A stretch of DNA of 64,000 bases from a virus (Duplodnaviria; Heunggongvirae; Uroviricota; Caudoviricetes): IMG/VR virus record IMGVR_UViG_3300025015_000015, one strand, 5' to 3'. The notes beneath the pieces were generated by a model. It did no database searches. It worked only from the letters and a program-made list of their open reading frames with translations, and had not been told where the DNA came from. This document shows, one piece after another, positions 34,472 to 52,911 of the stretch. Each line of letters opens with the position of its first letter. The first letter of the stretch is position 1. A program made the translations under genes and the position numbers.

Positions 34472-34652
34472 ACTTCGTCTTAGGTTTATTTCCTCTATAT
34501 AAAGTATAACATATAAAAAGTACTTTGTCAAGTGCTCTTAATATTTTTTGATATCAAAGAAATATGTAGTTTGTAACGTTTGTATAATTTATAATATCTA
34601 ATATAACTTTCATGGTCATGAAATTTAAATTGAAAGTCCGATAATCTTTGAA
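34472..34652 (-). promoter_or_regulatory. copy A of a ~180 bp repeat carrying a consensus sigma70-type promoter (TTGACA 34526-34531, 17 nt spacer, TATACT 34503-34508, minus strand) plus conserved upstream blocks
   Basis: Shares a 32 nt identical block (ttaggtttatttcctctatataaagtataaca), tttgtcaagt, atatgtagtt..taacgtttgtaa and ttaaagtccgataatc with copy B. Confidence 0.55.
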
Positions 34653-34723
34653 TGGACCCGACTGGATTCGAACCAGTGTTGCACCGTTATAAGCGATGAG
34701 TTCTACCATTGAACTAAAGGTCC
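34653..34723 (-). tRNA. tRNA-Ile (anticodon UAU)
   Basis: Manual fold: acceptor GGACCTT with one mismatch, D-arm GTTC-AATGGTA-GAAC, anticodon stem CATCG/CGGTG with loop CTTATAA, T-arm ACTGG-TTCGAAT-CCAGT; GGATTCGAACC visible on the + strand. Confidence 0.55.
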
Positions 34724-34726
34724 ATA

Positions 34727-34810
34727 TACCAGAAGTGGGACTCGAACCCACAAGCTCTTACGAGCATCAGCTTTTAAGACTGGTATGTCTGCCAATTCCA
34801 TCATTCTGGC
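34727..34810 (-). tRNA. tRNA-Leu (anticodon UAA), long variable arm
   Basis: Manual fold: acceptor GCCAGAA/TTCTGGT, D-loop GAATTGGCAGA, anticodon loop CTTAAAA, variable stem GCTC-GTAA-GAGC, T-arm GTGGG-TTCGAGT-CCCAC. Confidence 0.6.
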
Positions 34811-35250
34811 AAAACTATTTTATATTCTGAAAAGTGTTTAATTGGGTTAATACCACTTTTATAATCCTTCAAAATATTATATGGAATAAGCCAAATATTT
34901 AAATCTAAATCAATAAGCATAAAATAATCACATTCATTACTAGAATATAATTTCCTTCTAGTTCCTTTATTATTTATTCTACACCTTCTTAATGAAAATT
35001 GAAATATTCCATATTTTGATTTACTTGTAGACGTTTTTATCTGGACCTTATTCCATTTACCATTAATTAAAACAACTAAATCATATGAAACATAATATTC
35101 AGGACTTAATACTTCATATCCAAGCATCATAAATACAAATTTTGCATAATATATCGCTGCATATCTAAGATTATTTTTATTAATTTTATCTTCCAAGTAC
35201 AACTCCAACTTTCGAACGGATATCCTCTTCTTGATCTCTTGTAATTCCAA
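34801..35250 (-). CDS. hypothetical protein, possible PD-(D/E)xK-like nuclease
   Basis: SYDLVVLINGKWNKVQIKTS resembles a D...(E/Q)-x-K core; its 3' end abuts or overlaps the tRNA-Leu 5' end. Confidence 0.25.
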   Translation of the reverse strand: MELQEIKKRISVRKLELYLEDKINKNNLRYAAIYYAKFVFMMLGYEVLSPEYYVSYDLVVLINGKWNKVQIKTSTSKSKYGIFQFSLRRCRINNKGTRRKLYSSNECDYFMLIDLDLNIWLIPYNILKDYKSGINPIKHFSEYKIVLPE

Positions 35251-36339: not shown

Positions 36340-36341
36340 AA

Positions 36342-36414
36342 TGGGAGTAGTGGGATTCGAACCCACAGCGTTCCGGTTAAAAGCCGGATGCTCGGCCAAT
36401 TGAGCTTTACTCCC
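36342..36414 (-). tRNA. tRNA-Lys (anticodon UUU)
   Basis: Manual fold: acceptor GGGAGTA/TACTCCC, D-arm GCTC-AATTGGCC-GAGC, anticodon stem TCCGG/CCGGA with loop CTTTTAA, T-arm GTGGG-TTCGAAT-CCCAC. Confidence 0.65.
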
Positions 36415-36471
36415 AATATTTACCATTCATAATTAGAAGCTAATATTATATCCTTCAATTCGGTTCCCATT

Positions 36472-42571: not shown

Positions 42572-43198
42572 TTATTTATTTAATATATAATCTTCAGCTT
42601 TCATATTTTCTTTAATTATTCTTACGGCTCTACGGTAACGGTGTGATGCCCGATGAATTTTTATTTTTAAGTCCTTTGAAATTTTTGTTAAGGTTTCTTG
42701 ATACGCTAAATATCTTATCATTATATAAACATCAATCTTCTTCAATTTTCCTTGTTCAATTAAATCACCAACACCACTAAAAAATTCCTCAAATATGATA
42801 CCTTTTGTTATTTCACTATCATCAGTACACATTACAGCTAAATTTTCCCACATTTCAATATCTTCTAAACTTTTAAGTTTACTGAATTTGTAAAATGTTT
42901 GTTTAAATCTCCATTTAATATAAGATATAATTTTTGCAATAATTCTATGACCATTATCCCATGGTTTAATTATTTTCATAGCATCATTCAAAGCACATAC
43001 TGCTGTTTGATAGGCATCTTTTTTATCAACATCTTTAAAATAATACCATTTTGATTCATATTTGTATATTTGGTCTATTAAAAGTTTATCAACAGCAGCC
43101 AAAATTTCTTCAAATATTTTTGGATCAAATTTAGATTCTTGATATCTAGTTGTTAAATCCCTGATTCTTTCAAACTTTTCTTCTTTATTTTCTTTCAT
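42572..43198 (-). CDS. sigma-factor-like late transcription regulator candidate
   Basis: C-terminus ETLTKISKDLKIKIHRASHRYRRAVRIIKE resembles the sigma70 region 4.2 HTH; sits immediately downstream of the terminase. Confidence 0.3.
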   Translation of the reverse strand: MKENKEEKFERIRDLTTRYQESKFDPKIFEEILAAVDKLLIDQIYKYESKWYYFKDVDKKDAYQTAVCALNDAMKIIKPWDNGHRIIAKIISYIKWRFKQTFYKFSKLKSLEDIEMWENLAVMCTDDSEITKGIIFEEFFSGVGDLIEQGKLKKIDVYIMIRYLAYQETLTKISKDLKIKIHRASHRYRRAVRIIKENMKAEDYILNK

Positions 43199-45144
43199 TT
43201 TGTTAATCTCCTTAGCATATCCTTCATGATGTTAATCTCCTTGTTTGACATTCCACCATCAGTGAATTGTTCAACTCTTTTATTTTTTGGAGTTTTATCA
43301 AGATCTACCCACCACAAAGGATTATTTTGTGGTGGTGACGATTGATCAGTTAATTTTTTCATTATCTTAGTCATAACTTCTATATCGGGCGGTTCACCGC
43401 AATGATTTACCGCTGAAATTACTGATCCAACAACTCCATCCGATACGTCCTTTGATCCTTTTAAAACCTTTTTTTCAGTGTCACCATCTTTTAAAATTTC
43501 TACCATTTGAACTTTATTAGGATGATCAATTTTACCACTTTCAGGATCTTCCTCAAGATTCACCAATTCAAATCTTAAATATGGATTATTATAACAAACC
43601 CAACGGCATTCTTCGACTAAACCTCTAAATGTTTTATATCCTTCTGGAGTCTTATCAAGCGACAAGTATTCGCACTTAATTCCTCTTTTCGTTAGAATTT
43701 GTTTGGTGTCCTCAGAAAGTAAACTTAGATCAGCAGTAAATAAATCTATATTAAAATGATAAATATCCCTAAGATCAAGAATAAATTTTCTTATAGTATA
43801 AAGAGGAATTTTGTCACCTTCCCTAGCTTTTATTCTTATTGCCAATTCAGTTCTTATAACTGGAGATCTCCTTAGTGTGTACGTTCCATCCGGTTGTTCT
43901 ATATTAACCTTTTTCCATCCACAGGCACAGGACATACCAATACCCATGGCATCACCATCACCAGAATATGAAATATCCTGATGAATATATCTTGGAATAT
44001 GTCGTGGAACTTGTATTTTTGAGAAATCAATGAATTTTGTAAGATCCAGATCGTCATTTATTCCAATATCTATTTGAAGCATTGATAATGGACTTGGAAT
44101 TGAATCATCCATGCAATCATCAACTAATTTTTCCGAATTGAATAATTTGGATCTTCTACTATAGGTAACCGATGTACCCGCAATATCTCTAAGTGCACCA
44201 ATTATATCATCTTCAAATTTTTGTAAGTATTCAATTGGGACTTTTATTATTTCTTTACCTATCTTTACAGCTTTTTCAATATCTTCTTGTGTTCTTAGTA
44301 TTTTTGATTGGATATAAGCATCTCCAATCATTACGTTAAATGTTTCACCACAATATCTAATATCGTTTCCAGCTTCCCATTTTGGTACATCAAAAACAAT
44401 TACATTTGAATTATTACGTTTTTCTTCAATAAATGTACTAAGGAATGAAAGCTGTTCCTGTTTTGACGCAACAAGGAACATTCTTCCAATTGTTTCTCCA
44501 TCAAATACAAACCGTGAATCAAGTCTTCTCTCTGTATCGTTGTAAGCCTGAAGAATTCTTCTTTTTTGACCTTCTGATTCATTTGGACTATCAACTTCGT
44601 CCAGGATTGCTATTATTGGACTTAATCCTTGTTGACCGGATCCTTTTGAATATGGTGATCCAAGACAATATTCAAATATTGAAAAATCTACCCTTGGATT
44701 ATCAATACTACCATTTATAGTTCCATATTTTTTAAACCAATCCGAATTATTAAGATGAGTTTGCATTATATTAAATCCGGCACTACCTCCAAGACTTTTA
44801 GTAAGATTGAAGAAGATAATTTGCATCTTACCACCAGCAGCCTTCCCCATAAATGCCCATGGATCTTTAAGGCATAAGACCCTATGCATGGTATATAATG
44901 CACCATATATAGCACATCTACTTTTACCACCACCAATGCATCCGGTAAGAGCAACTATATATTTTTTATCAGTAACAAATATCTCCTTTAATGCTCTTCT
45001 CCAGATTGGATATACATCAATTCCGTTTCTAGTGGTTTTTCCAAGGTATTGTGGATCATTAAGAAATGAGTCTATATCAACTGGACGCTCTTTATAATCC
45101 ATTTCGTACAAGTGATCCAAGTAGGCTTTTATTCTTTTTGGCAT
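43195..45144 (-). CDS. terminase large subunit (T4 gp17-like ATPase/nuclease)
   Basis: Walker A LTGCIGGGKS, 649 aa, adjacent to portal and candidate small subunit. Confidence 0.7.
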   Translation of the reverse strand: MPKRIKAYLDHLYEMDYKERPVDIDSFLNDPQYLGKTTRNGIDVYPIWRRALKEIFVTDKKYIVALTGCIGGGKSRCAIYGALYTMHRVLCLKDPWAFMGKAAGGKMQIIFFNLTKSLGGSAGFNIMQTHLNNSDWFKKYGTINGSIDNPRVDFSIFEYCLGSPYSKGSGQQGLSPIIAILDEVDSPNESEGQKRRILQAYNDTERRLDSRFVFDGETIGRMFLVASKQEQLSFLSTFIEEKRNNSNVIVFDVPKWEAGNDIRYCGETFNVMIGDAYIQSKILRTQEDIEKAVKIGKEIIKVPIEYLQKFEDDIIGALRDIAGTSVTYSRRSKLFNSEKLVDDCMDDSIPSPLSMLQIDIGINDDLDLTKFIDFSKIQVPRHIPRYIHQDISYSGDGDAMGIGMSCACGWKKVNIEQPDGTYTLRRSPVIRTELAIRIKAREGDKIPLYTIRKFILDLRDIYHFNIDLFTADLSLLSEDTKQILTKRGIKCEYLSLDKTPEGYKTFRGLVEECRWVCYNNPYLRFELVNLEEDPESGKIDHPNKVQMVEILKDGDTEKKVLKGSKDVSDGVVGSVISAVNHCGEPPDIEVMTKIMKKLTDQSSPPQNNPLWWVDLDKTPKNKRVEQFTDGGMSNKEINIMKDMLRRLTK

Positions 45145-45860
45145 TCCGCAGTTCCTTCTTCCATCAATCCTTCCTCAAGCATTCTACTTTCAATACCCTT
45201 TCTAAGACTTTCCCTTGTTTTTGGATCTAGAGATCTTGCTTGTTCTATTAAACTTTGTTCTTCATCGTTTAATACAACGGAATCAACCTGTTTGGCTCCA
45301 GGTTGTCCCAAATGTATATGTTGTGATCCAATAATTTTTCTGTTATCATTTACAGTTGGAGTTATGGAAGATCCATCTTGCTTTGGAACAACAAATCCCA
45401 TTTTTGCAGCAAATTCAGTTAAAAATTCACGTTCTTTTCTAAGTTCAGCTATAATAGCTCTGATTTCTTTATAATTTTTTTGTTTTTCAATAACATTCAT
45501 TATCTCAATATTACATTTAGAACATATATATTTAAATTCATCATCAAAAATATAACGATTCATTCTTACTTTGCAACAGGGGGATACTAAATCTTTATAT
45601 CCAGTTAAATCATTAAGACATTCAATAAGATGTGCTGTTTCCTGTTGATGACCTGACAATACTTCTTCACTTATGGCACAGGCAATATCATAATTAACTT
45701 CATGTTTACGTTTTCTTTGAATTCTTTCTGATATAGTTCTTACATAATCCGGATCAGCACCACATTCAGCTACTACTTTATCAATATTTCCTCTATGTTT
45801 AAATATGAGGGATCCAACCCGTTGCTCCATTCTAAATTTTTCAATATTTCCATTTGGCAT
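45129..45860 (-). CDS. terminase small subunit candidate (HTH plus zinc ribbon)
   Basis: Immediately upstream of the large terminase and overlapping it; CCKVRMN...CSKCN zinc ribbon. Confidence 0.35.
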   Translation of the reverse strand: MPNGNIEKFRMEQRVGSLIFKHRGNIDKVVAECGADPDYVRTISERIQRKRKHEVNYDIACAISEEVLSGHQQETAHLIECLNDLTGYKDLVSPCCKVRMNRYIFDDEFKYICSKCNIEIMNVIEKQKNYKEIRAIIAELRKEREFLTEFAAKMGFVVPKQDGSSITPTVNDNRKIIGSQHIHLGQPGAKQVDSVVLNDEEQSLIEQARSLDPKTRESLRKGIESRMLEEGLMEEGTAECQKE

Positions 45861-45862
45861 AA

Positions 45863-46093
45863 TTACTCCATTAATTCTTTACACAATACTAATGGCATTC
45901 CCCAGTATTTTTTAGGAACACCAGATATTCCTTCTTTTGGAATAAATTTAATAAACGTACCATTACTTAATTTACAAAAATACCTCCCATTACAGTCAGT
46001 ACCAAGTTGATCACAATAAGGATGACAAGCAAAGAAACCCCCACCAATATCTTTAAATTTTACACTAAGTTCAAATTCAAAAACTCTACTCAT
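45863..46093 (-). CDS. hypothetical Cys-rich small protein
   Basis: ORF only. Confidence 0.2.
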   Translation of the reverse strand: MSRVFEFELSVKFKDIGGGFFACHPYCDQLGTDCNGRYFCKLSNGTFIKFIPKEGISGVPKKYWGMPLVLCKELME

Positions 46094-46485
46094 TTAATAA
46101 TTCCTTTAATATCACATTCTCCACACATAACAATAAAAGTATCCTTATCATCAACTTTATCAATAATAAACCAAGGCACTGATTTATCATAAAGTACAAT
46201 AGTTCCTGGAATTAGATCCGGTTGTGTTGAATGATATCTTCCTTTATCATCCTGATAACCAGGACCTATTGCAAGTAAAATTCCATAACTATTTTTATGA
46301 AGCTTTTTGAACTGTTCTGGAATTGATATTACACCAAGAGATCCTAATGTTTCTGGTTTAGGAAATGGCCAAATAAAACAAATATCCCTTAATGGTCTAT
46401 ACCCAAATCCAACATTCCAATCACTAATATATGGACATTGTTTAAAAATTTCCTTTTTATTAATATTAATTTCTAATTTATCCAT
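46090..46485 (-). CDS. GroES/gp31-like co-chaperonin
   Basis: GYRPLRD...SLGVISIPE...NSYGILLAIGPGYQDDKG...IPGTIVLYDK...KDTFIVM...DIKGIIK follows the GroES pattern (RPL-DRV..., ...G-x-VLAVG-x-G..., GD-x-V-x-F..., ...E-x-L-x-M-x-E-x-DIL-x-I). Confidence 0.45.
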   Translation of the reverse strand: MDKLEININKKEIFKQCPYISDWNVGFGYRPLRDICFIWPFPKPETLGSLGVISIPEQFKKLHKNSYGILLAIGPGYQDDKGRYHSTQPDLIPGTIVLYDKSVPWFIIDKVDDKDTFIVMCGECDIKGIIK

Positions 46486-46496
46486 ATTTATACCCT

Positions 46497-46934
46497 TTAA
46501 ATGTTTTTAAGTAATTCAGGATAATCAGCACAACTTAAAATTTCCTTTCTAAGATGTGGCCATTTCTCTACTGCTAGATTATATAATATTTTATAAAGTA
46601 ATATTTGATAAGGAACAAAAATCCAGTTTAGAGGTTTTACAATATAATGTCCAAATTTACAATCGAGATTCCATAACCATTTTGGATATTGAGAAAAACA
46701 AAATCCAGGATGTGTAATTGAATGAATTTGACTAAATCCAAAGCTACAATAAACTCTAACTGTTCCAAACTTCTCCTTCCAATCTATTACATCAACTCTT
46801 CCAAATCTACGAAGATTTTTTCCAATAAATTTTGCAGCTTTATTTATTCCTTCCCAATCAACATCCGGATCTCCCCACATATGCATAACTTGACTCCTAA
46901 AATTTATTTCAATCATTAGTATGTTTTTCAACAT
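46497..46934 (-). CDS. hypothetical protein
   Basis: ORF only. Confidence 0.25.
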   Translation of the reverse strand: MLKNILMIEINFRSQVMHMWGDPDVDWEGINKAAKFIGKNLRRFGRVDVIDWKEKFGTVRVYCSFGFSQIHSITHPGFCFSQYPKWLWNLDCKFGHYIVKPLNWIFVPYQILLYKILYNLAVEKWPHLRKEILSCADYPELLKNI

Positions 46935-47526
46935 AACTTATTTCGTTTGTTTGTTTAACTACAAATACAGTATCGGAAGATTTAGTAATTTCATCTTCAT
47001 GAGTAATTATAATAAATTGAATTCCAAGCATGTTGGAAAGTTTTTTAATCATTTCACCAAAAAATTCCATCTTATCAGCAGATGCATCTTTTAATGGTTC
47101 ATCAAGAATTAATGTATTTCTTGTTTTATTACTGGATATGGCCCAAAGAACAACCCTTAAAACAAAAGCAACAAGAACAGCCACTGTTCCACCAGATTCA
47201 TCTTTAAGAGATCTTCGTTTTCCATTTTTAACTATATAAAGGTATGATTCCGGTTTTCCATGCTTAATTTCATCTTCAATTTTAAATTCATACTCAGGAC
47301 CAAAAACTGATTGCATAGCATTTGTAACAAGATCTTCAATTACAGTCTTAACTTCTTGTTGAGCAAGAATACCAACAGCATTCATTACATCTTTAGCTTT
47401 ATTAAGATCTTCTTTACACTTTTTAATATTTGATAATAATTCTTCGACTTCAGACTTTTTTAGCATTAAAGAGTCCAATTTTGATTGTTTTGAATAATAA
47501 AACTTTTTATATACTTCTAAATTCAT
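46909..47526 (-). CDS. Rad50/SbcC-like ATPase, C-terminal half (signature motif, Walker B, H-loop)
   Basis: ESGGTVAV (ABC signature), LILDEP (Walker B/D-loop), IIITHEDE (H-loop). Confidence 0.6.
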   Translation of the reverse strand: MNLEVYKKFYYSKQSKLDSLMLKKSEVEELLSNIKKCKEDLNKAKDVMNAVGILAQQEVKTVIEDLVTNAMQSVFGPEYEFKIEDEIKHGKPESYLYIVKNGKRRSLKDESGGTVAVLVAFVLRVVLWAISSNKTRNTLILDEPLKDASADKMEFFGEMIKKLSNMLGIQFIIITHEDEITKSSDTVFVVKQTNEISYVEKHTND

Positions 47527-47852
47527 TAAATTCCAATACCATTTCCATTTGCATATTTTTTATTTACTTTGACAAATATTGTTGTACCCTCTGGCCACAT
47601 TTGGGGAGGAATTATCAAATTTGCTCCTGGCTCTAATTCAGAGGGTGTATTATCAGCGTAATAATTCATAGTCCACTTTCTAGCATTAGTATTTGTGTCT
47701 CTTTCTACTGTTATGTATCCTATTTCTACAAGACTATGACTTTTTTTCAGATTTACTAATAATCTCATCCATTTCTGTATTAATTTTTCCAAGGTCAGTT
47801 TCACATTCCTTAAGTTCTGTTTCAGTTTCAAGTAATAACTTTTCAGCTTCAT
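47526..47852 (-). CDS. hypothetical protein
   Basis: ORF only; partly overlaps the coiled-coil ORF in another frame. Confidence 0.2.
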   Translation of the reverse strand: MKLKSYYLKLKQNLRNVKLTLEKLIQKWMRLLVNLKKSHSLVEIGYITVERDTNTNARKWTMNYYADNTPSELEPGANLIIPPQMWPEGTTIFVKVNKKYANGNGIGI

Positions 47853-47985
47853 CTAAATTCTCCACACCAAATTCTGTTTTAAGGGATTGTAATAACTGAT
47901 CACGTTGACCTATTAATTTATCATTTGAAGATTTTAAATCAACTAATTTTCTTTTTTTGTTTTTAATATCACTAATTAGATCCAT
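47734..47985 (-). CDS. coiled-coil protein (possible returning coiled-coil arm of the split Rad50)
   Basis: 83 aa with heptad-like charged/leucine pattern, lying between Mre11 and the Rad50 C-terminal half. Confidence 0.3.
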   Translation of the reverse strand: MDLISDIKNKKRKLVDLKSSNDKLIGQRDQLLQSLKTEFGVENLDEAEKLLLETETELKECETDLGKINTEMDEIISKSEKKS

Positions 47986-48883
47986 GAATTACCTCTTCAA
48001 TACTTTCATCAACTATTCTTCTAACATTTTCATTAGAATTCATTTCATCCATTATTTTACAAAGTAAGGTTTTCCAATTACAACTAGAATTAGATTTTTT
48101 AGTTAAATTAGTAATAAAATCAATCAATTTTTGATTGTCCTGTTTTTCTTCTATACTTAAATCAAAAACTTCATTAACCGGTTCAAATTTTAATTTAATT
48201 GTATTAACATTATTATTTTTAGTATTTATTATCGAAACGCTTGGCTCATGTTTTAATTCAAATTCTGATATATTTTTTCTTATCAATACCCCAGGATTTA
48301 ATATTAATCTTTCTTTATATTCTTCAACAAAAGAGTAATGGTAATCCCCAGAAATTACTAAATTATATTTTGGATTCTTCTTTAAAAATTGTTTTGGCAT
48401 TTCAAGATCTTGTCCTGGAAATAATGGTCTACTGCCGATCATTGCATGAACTAAAAGTACATTATAACTACCATCTATCGGTTCAGGTATTGGTTGCCCA
48501 AAATTAGCACCATAAATTGAAATATTATTTATTTTAAATGGTATTTCATTTAATAAATTTATAACTCCTGAAGATTTTAAAACTGATAAAGGACTATTTG
48601 GTAATGTTAATATTGTTCTACCAGCGACGTCATGATTGCCAAATATGATATTCAATGTTATATCATACTTTTTTAATATATCTATTATTTTTGATATTAC
48701 TATATTTGATACACAAGGATTATCAAATAAATCACCAACTTGTACAATAACTTCACAATTATGTTCTTTAAATATTGTTAAAGATTGTTCAAATTTACAT
48801 ATTTGTGTTTCCCAAAAATTATCAAGACGACGTTCAGGTCGCTTATTATTAAAATGGCAATCTCCCAATGCTCCAATAATCAT
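47972..48883 (-). CDS. Mre11/SbcD-like nuclease (T4 gp47-like calcineurin-fold phosphoesterase)
   Basis: GALGDCHF, VQVGDLFD, IIFGNHDV phosphoesterase motifs; start trimmed to MIIGALGD (ATGA overlap with the HNH stop). Confidence 0.7.
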   Translation of the reverse strand: MIIGALGDCHFNNKRPERRLDNFWETQICKFEQSLTIFKEHNCEVIVQVGDLFDNPCVSNIVISKIIDILKKYDITLNIIFGNHDVAGRTILTLPNSPLSVLKSSGVINLLNEIPFKINNISIYGANFGQPIPEPIDGSYNVLLVHAMIGSRPLFPGQDLEMPKQFLKKNPKYNLVISGDYHYSFVEEYKERLILNPGVLIRKNISEFELKHEPSVSIINTKNNNVNTIKLKFEPVNEVFDLSIEEKQDNQKLIDFITNLTKKSNSSCNWKTLLCKIMDEMNSNENVRRIVDESIEEVIHGSN

Positions 48884-49629
48884 TTTTGTCCTCCAATAAT
48901 ATGGGGACAAATACCATCATGAAATTGTCTTCCAAGATTGCAATTCCAACAAAGAACTTGAAGATCATCAGGAAAATTATTTTTTATTATCCAGTAATAA
49001 AATTTATCCACACAACTAAGTTTTATTTCTTTTCTATGTTCTGCTCCGTTATTATTTATATGATTTATAGTTAGAACATCAATTTCGGATTGTCCACAGC
49101 ATTTACACTTACTGCCATAGTGGGAAAAAATTTTGACTTTCAATTTTGATCTTCTTATTGTATTTCTCTCCGAATATTTAGTGTGTTTATGTTCCTCTTT
49201 TTTATGTTTTAATTCTTTTTTAAAATTACAATTAAAACAAAGAACTTGAAAGCCTGGTGGAAAATTATTTCTAATAAGCCATAAATAAGTTGCTATTCCA
49301 CTATGAATTTTATATTTATACCTATCATTATTAATATGATCAATACATAAAAAATCAAAATTATTTTCTTTACAAACTTTACATTCATGTCCATAATGAT
49401 TAAAAATGCGTGTTTTTATATTATCATAATTTTCTTTATGACGCTTTCTTATTTTACATTTATTTTTAATATAATATGCCTTGGATCGTTTTTTGTCACA
49501 TTTCTTTGAACATTTTTTACATTCTGGTCTTAGTTTATTTCCATTTTTATAGAAATTTTCTGTTGTAGCAGGTTTTTCTTTATGACATTTAGTACAAATT
49601 TTAGTTTTAACTTCTTCCATATTACTCAT
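48880..49629 (-). CDS. HNH homing endonuclease with N-terminal zinc-finger motif and duplicated HNH modules (intact family member)
   Basis: KICTKCHKEKP...CKKCSKK; CIDHINNDRY...VLCFNCNFKK and INHINNNGAEH...VLCWNCNLGRQ. Confidence 0.7.
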   Translation of the reverse strand: MSNMEEVKTKICTKCHKEKPATTENFYKNGNKLRPECKKCSKKCDKKRSKAYYIKNKCKIRKRHKENYDNIKTRIFNHYGHECKVCKENNFDFLCIDHINNDRYKYKIHSGIATYLWLIRNNFPPGFQVLCFNCNFKKELKHKKEEHKHTKYSERNTIRRSKLKVKIFSHYGSKCKCCGQSEIDVLTINHINNNGAEHRKEIKLSCVDKFYYWIIKNNFPDDLQVLCWNCNLGRQFHDGICPHIIGGQK

Positions 49630-50716
49630 TATTTAACAGTTTTTCCTTTGATGTTTCATTAAGATCTTCACCACAGTACGGACATTCAGTTAATTCTTCC
49701 ATTGATGTATTTATTAACTCTTTTTGGGCTTTAACTAGTTGTTCAAATTCTTCAATTCTGCTATCATTAAATTTTATTTTACTAATTAATGATTCAAGAT
49801 TAGTCAATTTTGAATTAATTTTAGTATATTTATTTAATATATCAGTTTTTCTAATTACTTCATCAATTTCGTCTGCTTTAATACATGGTATTGAAATTGT
49901 TTTTATCTGTTTAATAGTTAATTTAATGGAATTAACAGATGATAAAACAAATTCATATTTTTCTAATTCTTTCTCGCTTTGTTTAATAATATCATCAAGA
50001 TTTTCTGGTATTGAAGAAATTCTATTATTAACATTTTTAATATCATTAATTAACTTAGATAAATTTTTAACTAATAATTCTTTATTTAATTTATTATTAA
50101 TTTTTATTTCAGCTTCTTCAATAAGATTCTTTAGTTTAATAAGATCAATATTTTCTAATTCTTTAATTTCAGTATTAATACCATTTAATTCTAATTCAAC
50201 ATTTTCCAATTTTCCATTATTTACTCTAATTTTTGAACCAATATTTGATATAACTTTATCTATTTGATCAAGACCGTATGTTTCTCGTATAATTAATGCT
50301 ATTTGACCGGCAGATTCATACACAAGATAATATGGATTAGTTTGCCACTGTATATTAATTTCATCCATATTAATTAAAGAGGATACTTCCTCCGGGACAT
50401 TATTACCAAAGGCCGTTAAAACCATGTCTTCGGAATTTGAATCAGTATGAATTGTATATGAATTAGTTTTTCCTCTTGTTCTTGTTATTGAAGAATTTAC
50501 TTCATCTGATAACTCCAACTTAACTGAGGCTTCTTCAGTACCAGTTCTTATAAACCCTTCACCAAGAGGTCTGTTTGACCTAACCCAATTTAAAGCTCGA
50601 AGTGAGGATGTTTTTCCAGAATCTCCTGTACCTATAATAACATTAAAACCTTTTGAAAAATCAAAAATAGATTCTTTATGAGATTGAAAGTTTTTTATTA
50701 TTAGTTTTTTAATCAC
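49622..50716 (-). CDS. Rad50/SbcC-like ATPase, N-terminal half ending at the zinc hook
   Basis: Walker A IIGTGDSGKTS; long coiled coil; C-terminal CPYCGEDL (CxxC hook). Confidence 0.6.
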   Translation of the reverse strand: MIKKLIIKNFQSHKESIFDFSKGFNVIIGTGDSGKTSSLRALNWVRSNRPLGEGFIRTGTEEASVKLELSDEVNSSITRTRGKTNSYTIHTDSNSEDMVLTAFGNNVPEEVSSLINMDEINIQWQTNPYYLVYESAGQIALIIRETYGLDQIDKVISNIGSKIRVNNGKLENVELELNGINTEIKELENIDLIKLKNLIEEAEIKINNKLNKELLVKNLSKLINDIKNVNNRISSIPENLDDIIKQSEKELEKYEFVLSSVNSIKLTIKQIKTISIPCIKADEIDEVIRKTDILNKYTKINSKLTNLESLISKIKFNDSRIEEFEQLVKAQKELINTSMEELTECPYCGEDLNETSKEKLLNNE

Positions 50717-50719
50717 AAA

Positions 50720-51028
50720 TTATGCCCAACCTTCAGAACTTTTTTCAACAATAAGTTCTTTAATTATTGAACAATCTTTAAGAAGAGGTTCACCATCACT
50801 TCCAAATCCAATAACCTGTCCAGTTACCTGATACATTTTTCTATCTAAACAACCGGATAAAGTAACACATGAACCACCTTTCATGTTTGGAAGTAAAATA
50901 TTAATTTTACCATTTCTATCTACAGCTTCGTAGACGGAAACGCCCTGTTCCAACTCTCCAGTAAGAAAATTTTTTGATTTTCCATCTGAAGGAGTTTCAC
51001 CAAATCTAACAAAGATAAATTTAATCAT
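50720..51028 (-). CDS. hypothetical protein
   Basis: ORF only. Confidence 0.25.
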   Translation of the reverse strand: MIKFIFVRFGETPSDGKSKNFLTGELEQGVSVYEAVDRNGKINILLPNMKGGSCVTLSGCLDRKMYQVTGQVIGFGSDGEPLLKDCSIIKELIVEKSSEGWA

Positions 51029-51515
51029 TTAATTTTATTTCCTTTTCATATAGATCAGGACGCAATTCTTTTAAAGCTTTCATTACAATATTAGTCTGTT
51101 CTTCCTCAGTAAGTTCATGGATATATTTGGCTTCTTTTGCCATATCGCATATTTTATCTAACCAAAGATCTCCACGTACTCCTACAACTTTAATTCCAAT
51201 AAATAATGGATTATTATGAATAGCTTTAGGCCCAAACTTATGATAAATGGGGGATAATAATATTCCATTAGCTATATTCCACCTACTAGTATAACATCTT
51301 CGGTCAATAATATGATGAGCATTAACTAATTTTATATCTCCTGAAATAAAACATCTTCTACCACCAGCTTCATATACCACCTTTCTCCAAGCAGCATCAA
51401 GTCTAGCTCGATATTTGATAACAAGATGATGTATACCTTTTGGAATTCGTTTCTTTTTTTTAGCCATTACCACACACGTTTCTTCCTTTCTTCGGTATGA
51501 TAAGCTTCTTTCCAC
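51021..51515 (-). CDS. HNH-like nuclease (possible junction-resolving/recombination nuclease)
   Basis: CFISGDIKLVNAHHII...NGILLSPIYH. Confidence 0.3.
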   Translation of the reverse strand: MERSLSYRRKEETCVVMAKKKKRIPKGIHHLVIKYRARLDAAWRKVVYEAGGRRCFISGDIKLVNAHHIIDRRCYTSRWNIANGILLSPIYHKFGPKAIHNNPLFIGIKVVGVRGDLWLDKICDMAKEAKYIHELTEEEQTNIVMKALKELRPDLYEKEIKLND

Positions 51516-52558
51516 ATTCGTTCAACTTCTTCTTTTAATTTATCCTCAAGATTTTCGGATTCTATTTTTTTAATCCAATTTGACATTATCTTCTTTTCAC
51601 CCCAAAGTTCAATTTCTGCACCTTTTGTTTTTGCCTCTTTTTCTCCATTTTGAAATTCTGATATAAAATATAAAGAAGATGCAATATTATCCAAACCATA
51701 ATCAAAGAGCACTCTAAATCTTCCGGATCTCATTGGTGAAGCCACCTTATTCTTTGTTACTTCAAATTTACACCAGAATCCAACTACTTTCTTTGATGTA
51801 TTCTCTATACGACCATCACTCCTTAAATAAATTCTTACTGAACTATAAAATTCAAGTGCTCTTCCACCACTTACAACTTCTGCCCTTCCCATATTAAGAT
51901 TGTCACGGGTTTGATCGATTACAAATAAAGATATATTATTATCAGCAATGGATCTTAAACATTTTCTAAACGCTGTAGATACAATCCTTGGTTTTGTAAG
52001 ACCCATTGTTTTTTCCATTAAATCATCTTTCTTTTCTGCTTCTGATGGTAATGCCGTCCACGAATCAACTGCTACAATCCTTGATCCTGTTGTCTTTTCC
52101 TTAGCCTTATCTTCATTATCCTCCTCATCTGACTCCTTATCCTTTTTAATCTTCTTTTTCTTATAAAGTGATGGAAGATATTTATCAAAAAAGGTTTCGA
52201 CTGTATCAGGAGCTTCGGTATCAATTAACCTAAAGTCCTTATTTGTTGCATCAAGTCCATACATCTTTGCAAAATTAGCATCAAATGTACGTTCTATATC
52301 AACAAAATCAGCTAACATTCCCTGTCTTAAGGCATATCCAAGAATAGTAGTGGCAAGAACAGTCTTACATGTACTAAATCCACCATATACCTGAATAACA
52401 CGGCCAACAGGAATTCCACCAGGAAGTTGATTAGCTATTGCTAAATCAAGTACGGTACAGCCGGTGGAGCACCAATGTTTAATCGCAGGAAGATCTTCAA
52501 CATTACACTTCTTTACAGCTTCACCGGCAGCATCCAAATCCACTGTATCATCATTCAT
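51467..52558 (-). CDS. RecA/UvsX-like recombinase
   Basis: GGIPVGRVIQVYGGFSTCKTVLAT matches RecA [22 protein letters not shown]. Confidence 0.8.
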   Translation of the reverse strand: MNDDTVDLDAAGEAVKKCNVEDLPAIKHWCSTGCTVLDLAIANQLPGGIPVGRVIQVYGGFSTCKTVLATTILGYALRQGMLADFVDIERTFDANFAKMYGLDATNKDFRLIDTEAPDTVETFFDKYLPSLYKKKKIKKDKESDEEDNEDKAKEKTTGSRIVAVDSWTALPSEAEKKDDLMEKTMGLTKPRIVSTAFRKCLRSIADNNISLFVIDQTRDNLNMGRAEVVSGGRALEFYSSVRIYLRSDGRIENTSKKVVGFWCKFEVTKNKVASPMRSGRFRVLFDYGLDNIASSLYFISEFQNGEKEAKTKGAEIELWGEKKIMSNWIKKIESENLEDKLKEEVERMWKEAYHTEERKKRVW

Positions 52559-52911
52559 TACTTATTCTCCTGCTTTGCAATTTCTGTTAACCTATCTTTA
52601 TCTTGTGGCCAGAAATAAACTTTCATATCTTCATTTTCAGCTATACTTTTTTCATTCGTAGCTCCAGTTGATTTTTCCCAATCAGGAATCATTACAACTA
52701 GATCACATCTTTTCATTAACTCAATAACACCATTTAAAAAATTCTCATCTGGAATATCACCATCAAACAATCCTGAATTCTTATGTGGACAAACTACCAC
52801 AAATCCCAATTTCCAAAGTTCCAAAGCCACAGCTTCAGCTTTATTAATATTTTCAACTATTCCACGAATAGTTTTAGCTCGATATGGTCCAGCAACATAT
52901 GCTATCTTCAT
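52558..52911 (-). CDS. DUF4406 / nucleoside 2-deoxyribosyltransferase-like protein
   Basis: MKIAYVAGPYRA...VVVCPH...CDLVVMIPDWEKSTGATNE. Confidence 0.5.
   Translation of the reverse strand: MKIAYVAGPYRAKTIRGIVENINKAEAVALELWKLGFVVVCPHKNSGLFDGDIPDENFLNGVIELMKRCDLVVMIPDWEKSTGATNEKSIAENEDMKVYFWPQDKDRLTEIAKQENK

What the first reader, a model, noticed from the sequence alone, without database searches (positions are those of the whole stretch)
46909..50716. Rad50/SbcC homologue split at the zinc hook, with an HNH endonuclease gene and mre11 lying between the two halves
The N-terminal ATPase half (49622-50716) ends exactly at a CPYC hook motif. Downstream on the minus strand come an intact HNH endonuclease (48880-49629), then Mre11 (47972-48883), then a short coiled-coil ORF and an unknown ORF. 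Last comes the C-terminal half with the ABC signature, Walker B and H-loop (46909-47526). This gives an arrangement rad50N-HNH-mre11-cc-rad50C. T4 has a single gene 46 followed by 47. The layout suggests a gene fission, perhaps seeded by homing-endonuclease insertion at the hook, that yields a two-polypeptide Rad50.
Basis: seen in the sequence. Interest (0 to 1): 0.55.

Follow-up and report, generated by a model that had tools for sequence, protein, structure and literature searches.

The report
Phage Rad50 naturally split at hook
This phage encodes its Mre11-Rad50 DNA-end-processing machine with Rad50 in separate pieces that break just after the zinc hook; the same break recurs across a large, apparently undescribed family of viral Rad50s, and the HNH endonuclease gene is only a recent passenger.

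Summary
On the minus strand lie a Rad50 N-half (364 aa; CPYC 16 residues from its end), a tandem-HNH gene, mre11, an 83-aa helical ORF (c1), an 80-aa ORF and a Rad50 C-half (205 aa).

A relative (C-half 88% identical) has the same split and gene order but no HNH, and its N-half stop overlaps the mre11 start.

The split is family-wide:
- In 80 of 88 related loci an N-half ending in CxxC lies upstream of a stand-alone ~200-aa C-half. These loci include Bacillus phages 0305phi8-36, phBC6A51 and vB_BboS-125.
- At least 1307 clusters (50% identity) of C-half relatives exist. The best 150 are all 151-304 aa.

Both halves match archaeal Rad50 lobes best, and the N-half tail matches the P. furiosus zinc hook. 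The c1 protein is a conserved fourth component, so Rad50 here probably has three pieces.

The N-half arm consists of ~47-aa repeats whose copy number varies. The c1 and C-half lengths do not follow it, so how the arm is paired is unresolved.

I found no paper describing this. I rate it a new variant of a known kind.

The parts
49622..50716 (-). Rad50 N-half (364 aa). It holds ATPase lobe I (Walker A GTGDSGKT, Q-loop Q125) and a helical arm at aa ~149-340 built of ~47-aa repeats. The zinc-hook CPYC is at aa 345-348, followed by a 16-aa tail.
   Evidence: ORF. Pfam AAA_23 8.7e-8 and phrog_16465 3.9e-34. Family alignment with invariant CPxC. Profile matches archaeal Rad50 N lobe at 1e-14. AF2 model and Foldseek top hits are Pfu/Mja Rad50 N chains. 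Tail profile matches the Pfu zinc hook 1L8D at 5e-5. Repeat analysis.
48880..49629 (-). Free-standing HNH endonuclease gene (249 aa) with two tandem HNH domains. It is a lineage-specific insertion between the N-half stop and the mre11 start.
   Evidence: phrog_2255 HNH 1.1e-18, two stretches. Internal duplication 44% identity, E=1e-21. Absent at the same junction in L007. Homologues are scattered in unrelated phages.
47972..48883 (-). Mre11/SbcD nuclease (303 aa) with all phosphoesterase motifs.
   Evidence: Metallophos_2 6.7e-9 and phrog_100 SbcD-like 2.9e-15. Family profile top hits are P. furiosus Mre11 at 1.7e-14. Invariant D8, D51, H84, D85, H146, H182; H10 in at least 90%.
47734..47985 (-). 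c1: a conserved 83-aa helix-loop-helix protein. It is the fourth conserved component of the module and a candidate for part of the return strand of the Rad50 arm.
   Evidence: Member of the c1 family (E=2.4e-14), which was found in nearly every locus that has both halves. No match in Pfam, PHROGs, NCBIfam or PDB.
47526..47768 (-). 80-aa ORF of unknown function found only in this subclade. It overlaps c1 by 35 nt, and its stop overlaps the C-half ATG.
   Evidence: 76% identical in L007, including the overlapping N-terminus; weak match (28%, E=3e-4) in L004. Called as 80 aa, or as 88 aa from an upstream start, in independent contigs.
46909..47526 (-). Rad50 C-half (205 aa). A single long N-terminal helix (aa 3-75) is followed by ATPase lobe II with SGG, Walker B LILDEP and H-loop ITHE.
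   Evidence: phrog_15167 4.1e-25, a profile only 211 long. All 36 close homologues are 131-224 aa. 1307 50%-identity clusters at E<=1e-30, and the best 150 are 151-304 aa. Profile matches Rad50 C lobe 3qkr_B at 8.9e-15. AF2 pLDDT 85.6. Foldseek.

Best explanation
The locus encodes a phage Mre11-Rad50 (SbcCD/gp46-47-type) DNA-end-processing complex. Its Rad50 subunit is made as separate polypeptides that assemble without being joined.

The pieces:
- The N-half supplies ATPase lobe I and a helical arm that ends in the zinc hook.
- The C-half supplies a free N-terminal helix of about 50-70 residues and ATPase lobe II.
- The 83-aa c1 protein is a conserved extra piece. Together with the C-half helix it is the likely return strand, or a clamp, for the arm.
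- Mre11, encoded between the pieces, is the nuclease.

The complex most likely works with the RecA-like recombinase encoded ~0.75 kb upstream, in recombination-dependent replication and repair, as T4 gp46/47 does with UvsX.

The break at the hook is an old trait shared by the whole family. The HNH gene is a mobile endonuclease that later landed in the junction between the N-half and mre11. The junctions of this module are general hot spots for inserted genes.

Shown here: the identity of the parts, the break point, family-wide conservation and the late arrival of the HNH. Inferred: the assembly, the role of c1, the arm geometry and the biological role.
For: - Complementary halves: the N-half matches the Rad50 N lobe and the C-half matches the Rad50 C lobe as top PDB hits, by sequence profile and by fold.
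- Catalytic residues are invariant or nearly so: GK, Q-loop, GG, DE and H-loop.
- Hook: CPxC is invariant across the 15 aligned family members. A CxxC lies 2-21 aa from the C-terminus in 64 of 69 distinct N-halves, and all 64 end in CPxC or CxxC tails.
- The tail profile finds the P. furiosus Rad50 hook as the top two of 177,635 PDB sequences.
- Linkage: in 80 of 88 loci the N-half lies upstream of the C-half on the same strand. The order is N-half, Mre11, c1, C-half.
- Mre11 is fused to the N-half in 0305phi8-36 gp8.
- Stand-alone status: every one of 36 close and 150 best distant C-half relatives is short.
- Translational-coupling overlaps occur at gene junctions.
- The AF2 C-half has an unpaired helix at aa 3-75.
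- From established knowledge: active Rad50 catalytic domains were reconstituted from separate N and C chains for crystallography. PDB 1F2T, 1II8 and 3QKR A/B chains are among the top hits.
- HNH is secondary: L007 lacks it. Other loci carry unrelated inserts at these junctions, such as HNH/NUMOD3, NAPRTase and epimerase genes.
- Recombination context: RecA lies upstream in the window and in relatives.
Against: - No physical evidence that the pieces bind one another.
- c1 has no detectable similarity to any Rad50 segment.
- Arm length varies from 151 to 302 aa without any matching change in c1 or the C-half. A simple fully paired antiparallel coiled coil therefore cannot hold for most members.
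- The ABC signature serine is not conserved across the family; only GG is.
- AF2 of the N-half alone breaks the arm into four helices with low pTM (0.34), so it could fold back on itself.
Confidence: 0.8

Rival explanations
1. Recent fission caused by the HNH gene. A homing endonuclease inserted at the hook of an intact rad50 and broke it in this lineage, as mobE did to nrdA in phage Aeh1.
For: - An intact HNH gene lies directly after the N-half.
- HNH/NUMOD3 genes recur at this junction in other loci (L021, L053).
- Fragmentation of phage genes by homing endonucleases has precedent (PMC3045599, found).
Against: - L007 has the same split and order without the HNH, and its N-half stop overlaps the mre11 ATG.
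- The break point is shared by loci whose C-halves are 21-50% identical to the window's, including Bacillus phages.
- The HNH sits between the N-half and mre11, not between two Rad50 fragments.
- An ancient seeding event by some other mobile element is not excluded, but it has left no trace.
Confidence: 0.03
2. Fold-back topology. The N-half arm folds back on itself at the conserved central loop (aa ~235-239). The C-terminal CPxC then lies near the ATPase head and acts as a head-proximal zinc clasp, not as an apical hook. c1 and the C-half helix would pack onto this bundle.
For: - AF2 splits the arm into helices 149-188, 192-234, 240-275 and 282-340, whose lengths could pair up/down around a loop at 235-239.
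- The central loop aligns across the family.
- AF2 also folds back some unsplit zinc-hook SMC-like proteins (ASRPs; PMC9389158).
Against: - The segment before the loop is constant (84-101 aa, mostly 86-88). The segment after it ranges from 67 to 254 aa in steps of ~45, so a symmetric hairpin fits only some members.
- The tail is homologous to the apical Rad50 hook, including the start of the descending helix.
- AF2 of an isolated chain tends to bury helices that lack their partner. The ASRP authors regard the folded-back forms as not native.
Confidence: 0.2
3. Assembly or sequencing artefact, or a decaying pseudogene. The fragments would be a single rad50 broken by frameshifts.
For: - The c1 ORF and the 80-aa ORF overlap by 35 nt in different frames.
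- A few near-identical contigs show broken mre11 or altered N-half calls (L090, L093, L094, L095).
Against: - The same ORF boundaries appear in contigs from several independent samples and in ~80 divergent loci.
- A whole conserved mre11 gene lies between the halves.
- Catalytic residues are conserved.
- In many loci c1 and the C-half are separated by 0.1-2 kb of other genes.
Confidence: 0.01
4. The pieces are rejoined covalently, either by protein trans-splicing (a split intein) or by RNA splicing.
For: - Fractured phage genes with split inteins and embedded endonucleases are known (PMC2677866).
- A terminase-position gene in relative L004 carries a weak intein hit.
Against: - Only 2-21 residues follow the hook in the N-halves, so there is no room for an N-intein.
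- The C-half and c1 start directly with family-conserved residues.
- No intein hit was reported for any piece.
- No intron or other RNA family was found in 45500-52700.
Confidence: 0.01

Closest known systems
Archaeal Mre11-Rad50 (P. furiosus, M. jannaschii)
   Same: - Best sequence and fold matches for the N-half, the C-half, Mre11 and the hook.
- Same ATPase motifs, a CPxC zinc hook and an adjacent mre11 gene.
   Different: - Canonical Rad50 is one chain of ~880 aa whose arm is an intramolecular antiparallel coiled coil.
- Here the chain ends 2-21 aa after the hook, and the rest is supplied by c1 and a 200-aa C-half.
- The arms are short and built of 47-aa repeats.
Phage T4 gp46/gp47 and E. 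coli SbcCD
   Same: - Same kind of machine: an ABC-ATPase with arm plus a phosphoesterase.
- Same likely role next to a RecA/UvsX-type recombinase (from established knowledge of T4; context).
   Different: - gp46 and SbcC are single polypeptides.
- The family profiles match E. coli SbcD far more weakly (2e-4) than archaeal Mre11.
- No chain named SbcC reached E<=0.01 with the N-half or C-half profiles.
Two-chain Rad50 catalytic-domain constructs used for crystallography (PDB 1F2T, 1II8, 3QKR)
   Same: Separate N and C polypeptides form a working Rad50 head. These A and B chains are the top hits for the N-half and the C-half respectively.
   Different: Those are laboratory truncations that lack the arm and hook. 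Here the division is natural, and the arm and hook stay on the N piece.
Archaea-specific SMC-related proteins (ASRP: ClsN/coalescin, Sph1/2)
   Same: - Best NCBIfam hit of the N-half (8.9e-18).
- Short-armed zinc-hook SMC-like ATPases of ~600 aa, close to the summed length of N-half + c1 + C-half (652 aa) (PMC9389158).
   Different: - The score is far below the curated cut-off (64 vs 300 bits).
- ASRPs are single chains, and the ASRP paper links ClsN to chromosome compartment organisation rather than DNA repair.
- The C-half does not hit the ASRP model.
Aeh1 nrdA split by the mobE homing endonuclease, and 'fractured genes' with embedded endonucleases
   Same: Phage DNA-metabolism genes encoded in pieces, with an endonuclease gene between them (PMC3045599, PMC2677866).
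   Different: - In those cases the endonuclease sits at the break and explains it.
- Here the break is ancient and family-wide, the nearest relative lacks the HNH, and a functional partner gene (mre11) lies between the halves.

Membership tests
Rad50/SbcC (SMC-like ABC ATPase of the Mre11 complex) | N-terminal lobe with Walker A and Q-loop | tested here: met
   GTGDSGKT and Q125 are invariant in the family. The profile's top PDB hits are the Rad50 N lobe at 1e-14. Foldseek top hits are Rad50 N chains.
Rad50/SbcC (SMC-like ABC ATPase of the Mre11 complex) | C-terminal lobe with signature motif, Walker B, D-loop and H-loop | tested here: met
   D142 and E143 are invariant and H176 is present in at least 90%. 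G113 is invariant in A2 and G112-G113 are at least 90% in A4. The signature serine is present in the window (SGG) but not conserved in the family. Top PDB hit is the Rad50 C lobe at 8.9e-15. Fold match.
Rad50/SbcC (SMC-like ABC ATPase of the Mre11 complex) | CxxC zinc hook at the apex of the arm | tested here: inconclusive
   The motif and its flanks are homologous to the Pfu hook (1L8D 5e-5), and CPxC is invariant. Pfam Rad50_zn_hook scores only 16.8 bits against a 24.3 cut-off. The apical position and zinc binding could not be tested.
Rad50/SbcC (SMC-like ABC ATPase of the Mre11 complex) | Both lobes on a single polypeptide, joined by an intramolecular antiparallel coiled coil | tested here: not met
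   The lobes lie on separate ORFs 2.1 kb apart with mre11 between them. The same holds in 80 of 88 loci. No long relative appears among the best 150 C-half hits.
Rad50/SbcC (SMC-like ABC ATPase of the Mre11 complex) | Genetic and physical partnership with an Mre11/SbcD nuclease | tested here: met
   An Mre11 gene was found in the module in 76 loci by clustering and in 4 of the 5 further loci checked with the profile. It is fused to the N-half in 0305phi8-36 gp8. Physical binding was not testable.
Mre11/SbcD phosphoesterase | Conserved phosphoesterase motifs (DxH, GD, GNHD-like, H, GDxH) | tested here: met
   D8, D51, H84, D85, H146 and H182 are invariant and H10 is present in at least 90% of 36 family members. 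Top PDB hits are Pfu Mre11 at 1.7e-14.
Free-standing HNH homing endonuclease | HNH nuclease domain, sporadic distribution, and presence/absence at one site between close relatives | tested here: met
   phrog_2255 1.1e-18. Homologues are scattered among unrelated phages. Present in the window but absent at the same junction in L007. Cleavage specificity and homing were not testable.
Split intein / fractured gene | N-intein after the N-extein and C-intein before the C-extein | tested here: not met
   Only 2-21 residues follow the hook. No intein family hit was reported. The C-half and c1 start with family-conserved residues.
ASRP (archaea-specific SMC-related protein, NF045487) | Score above the curated NCBIfam cut-off over the full length | tested here: not met
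   64.2 bits against a 300 cut-off, for the N-half only. The C-half has no ASRP hit.
Anti-phage defence ABC ATPases (Lamassu LmuB, Gabija GajA, Septu PtuA, PARIS AriA) | Specific match to a defence-system model, together with that system's partner genes | tested here: not met
   Only weak matches (best E=2.3e-11 for the C-half and 3.8e-9 for the N-half, both to mad3), many confined to the Walker A region. No hits for Mre11, c1 or the 80-aa ORF. The context is a phage recombination module.

The most novel reading that the evidence does not exclude
In this viral family the Rad50 arm may not be the canonical two-stranded intramolecular antiparallel coiled coil.

The outgoing strand is a chain of 3 to 7 tandem ~47-aa helical units that ends in a C-terminal zinc hook. 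The only candidates for a return strand (c1 plus the C-half helix, about 125 residues) have a fixed length. Most of the arm in longer members would then be either a single helix or paired with the arm of a second N-half, for example as a parallel homodimer capped by Zn(Cys)4.

That would be a new way to build an SMC-like arm. It would also show that covalent continuity through the hook is dispensable for Mre11-Rad50 function.
Probability: 0.3. Interest if true: 0.8.

Novelty: new variant of a known kind. Interest (0 to 1): 0.6.

Why it matters
- Rad50 and SMC proteins are defined by one chain that runs out along a coiled coil, turns at a hook or hinge, and runs back so that its two ends form one ATPase head. 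A large natural family that cuts the chain at the hook, and again before the C lobe, shows this continuity is not needed.
- The family offers a natural system for asking what the arm and hook do. Arm length varies in quantised steps, the return strand has a fixed length, and the pieces are small and can be expressed separately.
- Cultured Bacillus phages and prophages carry the module (phBC6A51 BC1852-BC1857, vB_BboS-125 gp32-35, 0305phi8-36 gp5-8), so experiments are possible.
- For annotation, thousands of ~200-aa proteins labelled 'ATPase' or 'chromosome segregation ATPase' and ~350-aa proteins labelled 'AAA_23' or 'exonuclease' in viral metagenomes can be recognised as halves of one Rad50.

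Tried and rejected
- DNA-level search of 46500-51000 against 50,697 phage records found no match.
- The scan of genome contigs with the C-half alignment failed because no stretch was conserved enough.
- The c1 profile against PDB gave only generic coiled-coil hits. No similarity of c1 to the post-hook segment of Rad50 could be shown.
- P0137 (295 aa) has an N-terminal extension that looks c1-like by eye, suggesting a c1-C-half fusion. The c1 HMM did not report it at E<=1, so I dropped it.
- Short-tail N-halves pair with c1 proteins that start 'MTEKELLELK'. This might mean the post-hook motif moved onto c1, but the pattern follows clades and amounts to one evolutionary event, so it is not used as evidence.
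- The 47-aa unit HMM hits the C-half N-terminal helix weakly (E=1.4e-5) and c1 only marginally. That is too weak to claim common origin.
- The HNH was compared with 0305phi8-36 gp9 and showed no similarity. HNH genes near the module in different phages are therefore independent.
- A defence-system reading was rejected, as were introns and other RNA elements.
- In Microbacterium phage Magritte the C-half lies at the start of the linear record and the only N-lobe hit is 94 kb away, matching just the first 140 aa. I did not resolve this.
- Five literature searches for a described split Rad50/SbcC found nothing. The library lacks most subscription journals, so absence is not proof.

Full report
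**1. What is in the window**

The minus strand between 50716 and 46909 carries six tightly packed ORFs:
- a 364-aa ORF with AAA_23/SMC_N-type N-terminal similarity (50716-49622);
- a 249-aa HNH ORF (49629-48880);
- a metallophosphoesterase (ATG at 48883, ending at 47972);
- an 83-aa ORF (47985-47734);
- an ORF best read as 80 aa (47768-47526);
- a 205-aa ORF with SMC_N/SbcC_Walker_B-type C-terminal similarity (47526-46909).

Successive genes overlap by 1-35 nt, the pattern typical of translational coupling. CPYC is at aa 345-348 and 16 residues follow it. The HNH protein is a tandem duplicate of one HNH domain.

**2. Are the two ATPase pieces halves of one Rad50?**

Yes.
- A profile of the N-half family finds archaeal Rad50 N-lobe chains first (3aux 1.2e-14).
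- A profile of the C-half family finds Rad50 C-lobe chains first (3qkr_B 8.9e-15). SMC proteins come next and ABC transporters are far weaker.
- AF2 models agree. Foldseek places the N-half on Pfu/Mja Rad50 N chains. It places the C-half (pLDDT 85.6) on the separately expressed C chains of Rad50 and SMC heads.
- Walker A and the Q-loop Gln in the N-half, and Walker B Asp-Glu in the C-half, are invariant. The signature GG and the H-loop His are conserved in at least 90% of members.
- The phosphoesterase is a true Mre11/SbcD. Its family profile hits P. furiosus Mre11 at 1.7e-14, and the metal-binding motifs are invariant or nearly so.

**3. Is the break at the hook?**

CPxC is invariant in an alignment that reaches as far as Bacillus phages. 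In 64 of 69 distinct N-halves a CxxC lies 2-21 residues from the C-terminus. Many proteins end 'CPLCGK'.

In the window's subclade the longer tail reads CPxCGxxLxxExKxxLL. A profile of 13 such C-termini finds the P. furiosus Rad50 zinc-hook structures 1L8D (5e-5) and 6ZFF (9e-5) as the best two of 177,635 PDB sequences. The alignment runs onto CPVCGRELTDEHREELL. The single-sequence and Pfam hook matches are weak, so hook homology rests on this profile result and on the invariance of CPxC.

**4. Is it an artefact?**

No. The identical C-half occurs on 23 contigs from separate groundwater samples (up to 116 kb). Fourteen of these share the same neighbouring genes, and the others shown keep the c1, 80-88-aa ORF and C-half layout. 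The same architecture recurs in about 80 divergent loci.

**5. How widespread is the split, and did the HNH cause it?**

All 36 close C-half homologues are 131-224 aa. A full HMMER scan of 1.84 billion representatives gives 1307 50%-identity clusters at E<=1e-30. The best 150 are all 151-304 aa, and none is a full-length Rad50. N-half homologues are 231-399 aa. PHROGs already holds the pieces as separate families: phrog_16465 'exonuclease' and phrog_15167 'ATPase', the latter with a profile length of 211.

A scan of IMG/VR found 173 relatives.

Cultured examples:
- phBC6A51: BC1852, BC1853, BC1854, BC1855, with SbcD (BC1857) downstream.
- vB_BboS-125: gp32 to gp35.
- 0305phi8-36: gp8 to gp5. 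Its gp8 is a natural Mre11-Rad50N fusion.

The relative L007 (C-half 88% identical, N-half 78%) has N-half, mre11, c1, the 80-aa ORF and C-half with no HNH. Its N-half stop overlaps the mre11 ATG as TAATG. In the window, the HNH ORF fills exactly that junction.

Other loci carry unrelated inserts at the module's junctions: HNH/NUMOD3 endonucleases, PRPP synthetase, NAPRTase and an epimerase. HNH homologues are scattered among unrelated phages. The HNH is therefore a recent mobile passenger in a locus that was already split.

**6. The fourth component**

Clustering of the intervening ORFs shows two near-universal families between the halves: Mre11 and an ~80-aa protein, c1. The window's 83-aa ORF is a member (E=2.4e-14). 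Most loci where the greedy gene picker missed c1 also have it.

c1 is a helix-loop-helix of two ~35-aa helices, with a conserved Gly in helix 1 and a 'G-C' turn. It has no match in Pfam, PHROGs, NCBIfam or PDB.

In roughly half of the distinct loci c1 overlaps or directly abuts the C-half start, with overlaps of 1-20 nt in most of these. In the rest, 0.1-2 kb of other genes intervene. This excludes a frameshift fusion as a general mechanism.

The 80-aa ORF is confined to the window's subclade.

**7. How it most likely works**

Shown:
- the identities of the parts;
- intact catalytic motifs;
- conserved linkage;
- an unpaired 73-residue N-terminal helix on the C-half;
- an arm with a C-terminal hook on the N-half.

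From established knowledge, Rad50 heads reconstitute from separate N and C chains. These are the very PDB chains that top.

Inferred: the C-half helix pairs with the first arm helix of the N-half to rebuild the head-proximal coiled coil where Mre11 binds. c1 extends or clamps this pairing. Two N-halves join through Zn at CPxC. The complex processes DNA ends for the RecA-like recombinase encoded ~0.75 kb upstream, as T4 gp46/47 does for UvsX.

No intein, intron or defence-system signature was found.

**8. An unexpected property of the arm**

The arm region shows its strongest sequence autocorrelation at an offset of 47 residues. This is stronger than the heptad offset, and there is a harmonic at 94. 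In 41 of 68 distinct N-halves, 47 is the best offset. The majority-class consensus shows three clear 47-aa copies.

The stretch from the arm start to a conserved central loop is nearly constant at 84-101 aa, mostly 86-88 (sd 2.9). The stretch from the loop to the Cys takes values of 67, ~112, ~155-159, ~198-209 and 254 aa, in steps of about 45. The AF2 helices in the window's N-half have the same spacing.

Arm length (151-302 aa) does not correlate with c1 length or C-half length (rho -0.19 and 0.12). In the shortest members, the arm (~150 aa) roughly equals c1 plus the C-half helix (~125-135 aa). That is compatible with a fully paired antiparallel arm cut at the hook and at one discontinuity. 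In the majority, one or more units have no evident partner.

The arm may therefore be partly single-stranded, partly paired between two N-halves, or folded back. I could not resolve this. The unequal, stepwise length after the central loop and the hook homology argue against a simple fold-back. AF2 also folds back some unsplit zinc-hook ASRPs, which their authors regard as non-native.

**9. Comparison with what is known**

The module works like Mre11-Rad50, SbcCD or gp46/47, and by sequence it is closest to the archaeal type. It fails one defining feature of Rad50, the single chain with an intramolecular coiled coil. I therefore file it as a variant, not an ordinary member. No NCBIfam model passes its cut-off; the best is ASRP at 64 of 300 bits, followed by archaeal Rad50.

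I found no paper that describes a split Rad50 or SbcC. The searchable library is incomplete, and genome annotations have named the pieces separately without comment.

**10. Verdict**

- The two-or-more-polypeptide reading is supported and extended to three pieces plus Mre11.
- The HNH-seeding idea is not supported.
- This is a widespread and apparently undescribed natural variant of Rad50, with an open structural question about its arm.
- Interest: 0.6.

Noticed in passing
window 49690-50272 (N-half aa ~149-340) and N-halves of L001-L088: The Rad50 arm is made of tandem ~47-aa repeats. Arm length across the family is quantised in ~45-aa steps: 67, 112, 157, ~200 and 254 aa after a conserved central loop. 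The c1 and C-half lengths stay fixed.
   Followed up: partly
window 48880-49629 (-): The HNH protein contains two tandem copies of the HNH domain (44% identical, E=1e-21). Most homologues in other phages look like single-domain proteins of about 90-145 aa.
   Followed up: partly
window 47526-47768 (-): An 80-aa ORF of unknown function overlaps the 3' end of c1 by 35 nt in another frame and abuts the C-half start. It is conserved in L007 (76%) and weakly in L004 and L012, and is absent from most of the family.
   Followed up: partly
L001 3972-6281 (Bacillus phage 0305phi8-36 gp8): gp8 is a natural fusion of Mre11/SbcD (aa 5-288, E=8e-37) with the Rad50 N-half, ending CPTC. Its C-half (gp5) remains a separate gene.
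   Followed up: yes
L020-L080, regions between N-half, mre11, c1 and C-half: The gene junctions of the module are insertion hot spots. Inserts include HNH/NUMOD3 endonucleases, PRPP synthetase, NAPRTase, an NAD-dependent epimerase and many small unknown ORFs.
   Followed up: partly
window 51021-51515 (-): A 164-aa ORF with a weak HNH_2 match (E=0.008) lies between the RecA-like gene and the module and overlaps the RecA 3' end by ~49 nt. A 148-149-aa ORF occupies the same position in L007 and in the groundwater contigs.
   Followed up: no
window 34652-34811 and 36341-36415 (-): Three tRNA genes (Ile-TAT, Leu-TAA, Lys-TTT), all reading A/T-rich codons. This fits a ~30% G+C phage with a genome of at least 116 kb, found in groundwater metagenomes.
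   Followed up: no
window 46090-46485 (-): A 131-aa ORF with a weak Cpn10/GroES match (E=0.003), possibly a phage co-chaperonin.
   Followed up: no
L090, L093, L094, L095 (near-identical groundwater contigs): Some contigs that carry the identical C-half show a broken mre11 region (104-aa and 70-176-aa ORF fragments), a shortened N-half call (298 aa), or an N-half merged with the upstream ORF (440 aa). This is either population variation or assembly error.
   Followed up: no
L004 10692-14081: A 1129-aa gene at the position of the large terminase in a relative carries a weak intein-splicing hit. The window's terminase (43195-45144, 649 aa) has no such insert.
   Followed up: no
L097 284-934 and L098 4001-5053 (Microbacterium phage Magritte): The C-half homologue is gene 2 at the very start of the linear record, preceded by a 96-aa ORF. 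The only N-lobe match is gene 155, about 94 kb away. The true N-half may lie at the other genome end, or the halves may be unlinked here.
   Followed up: partly
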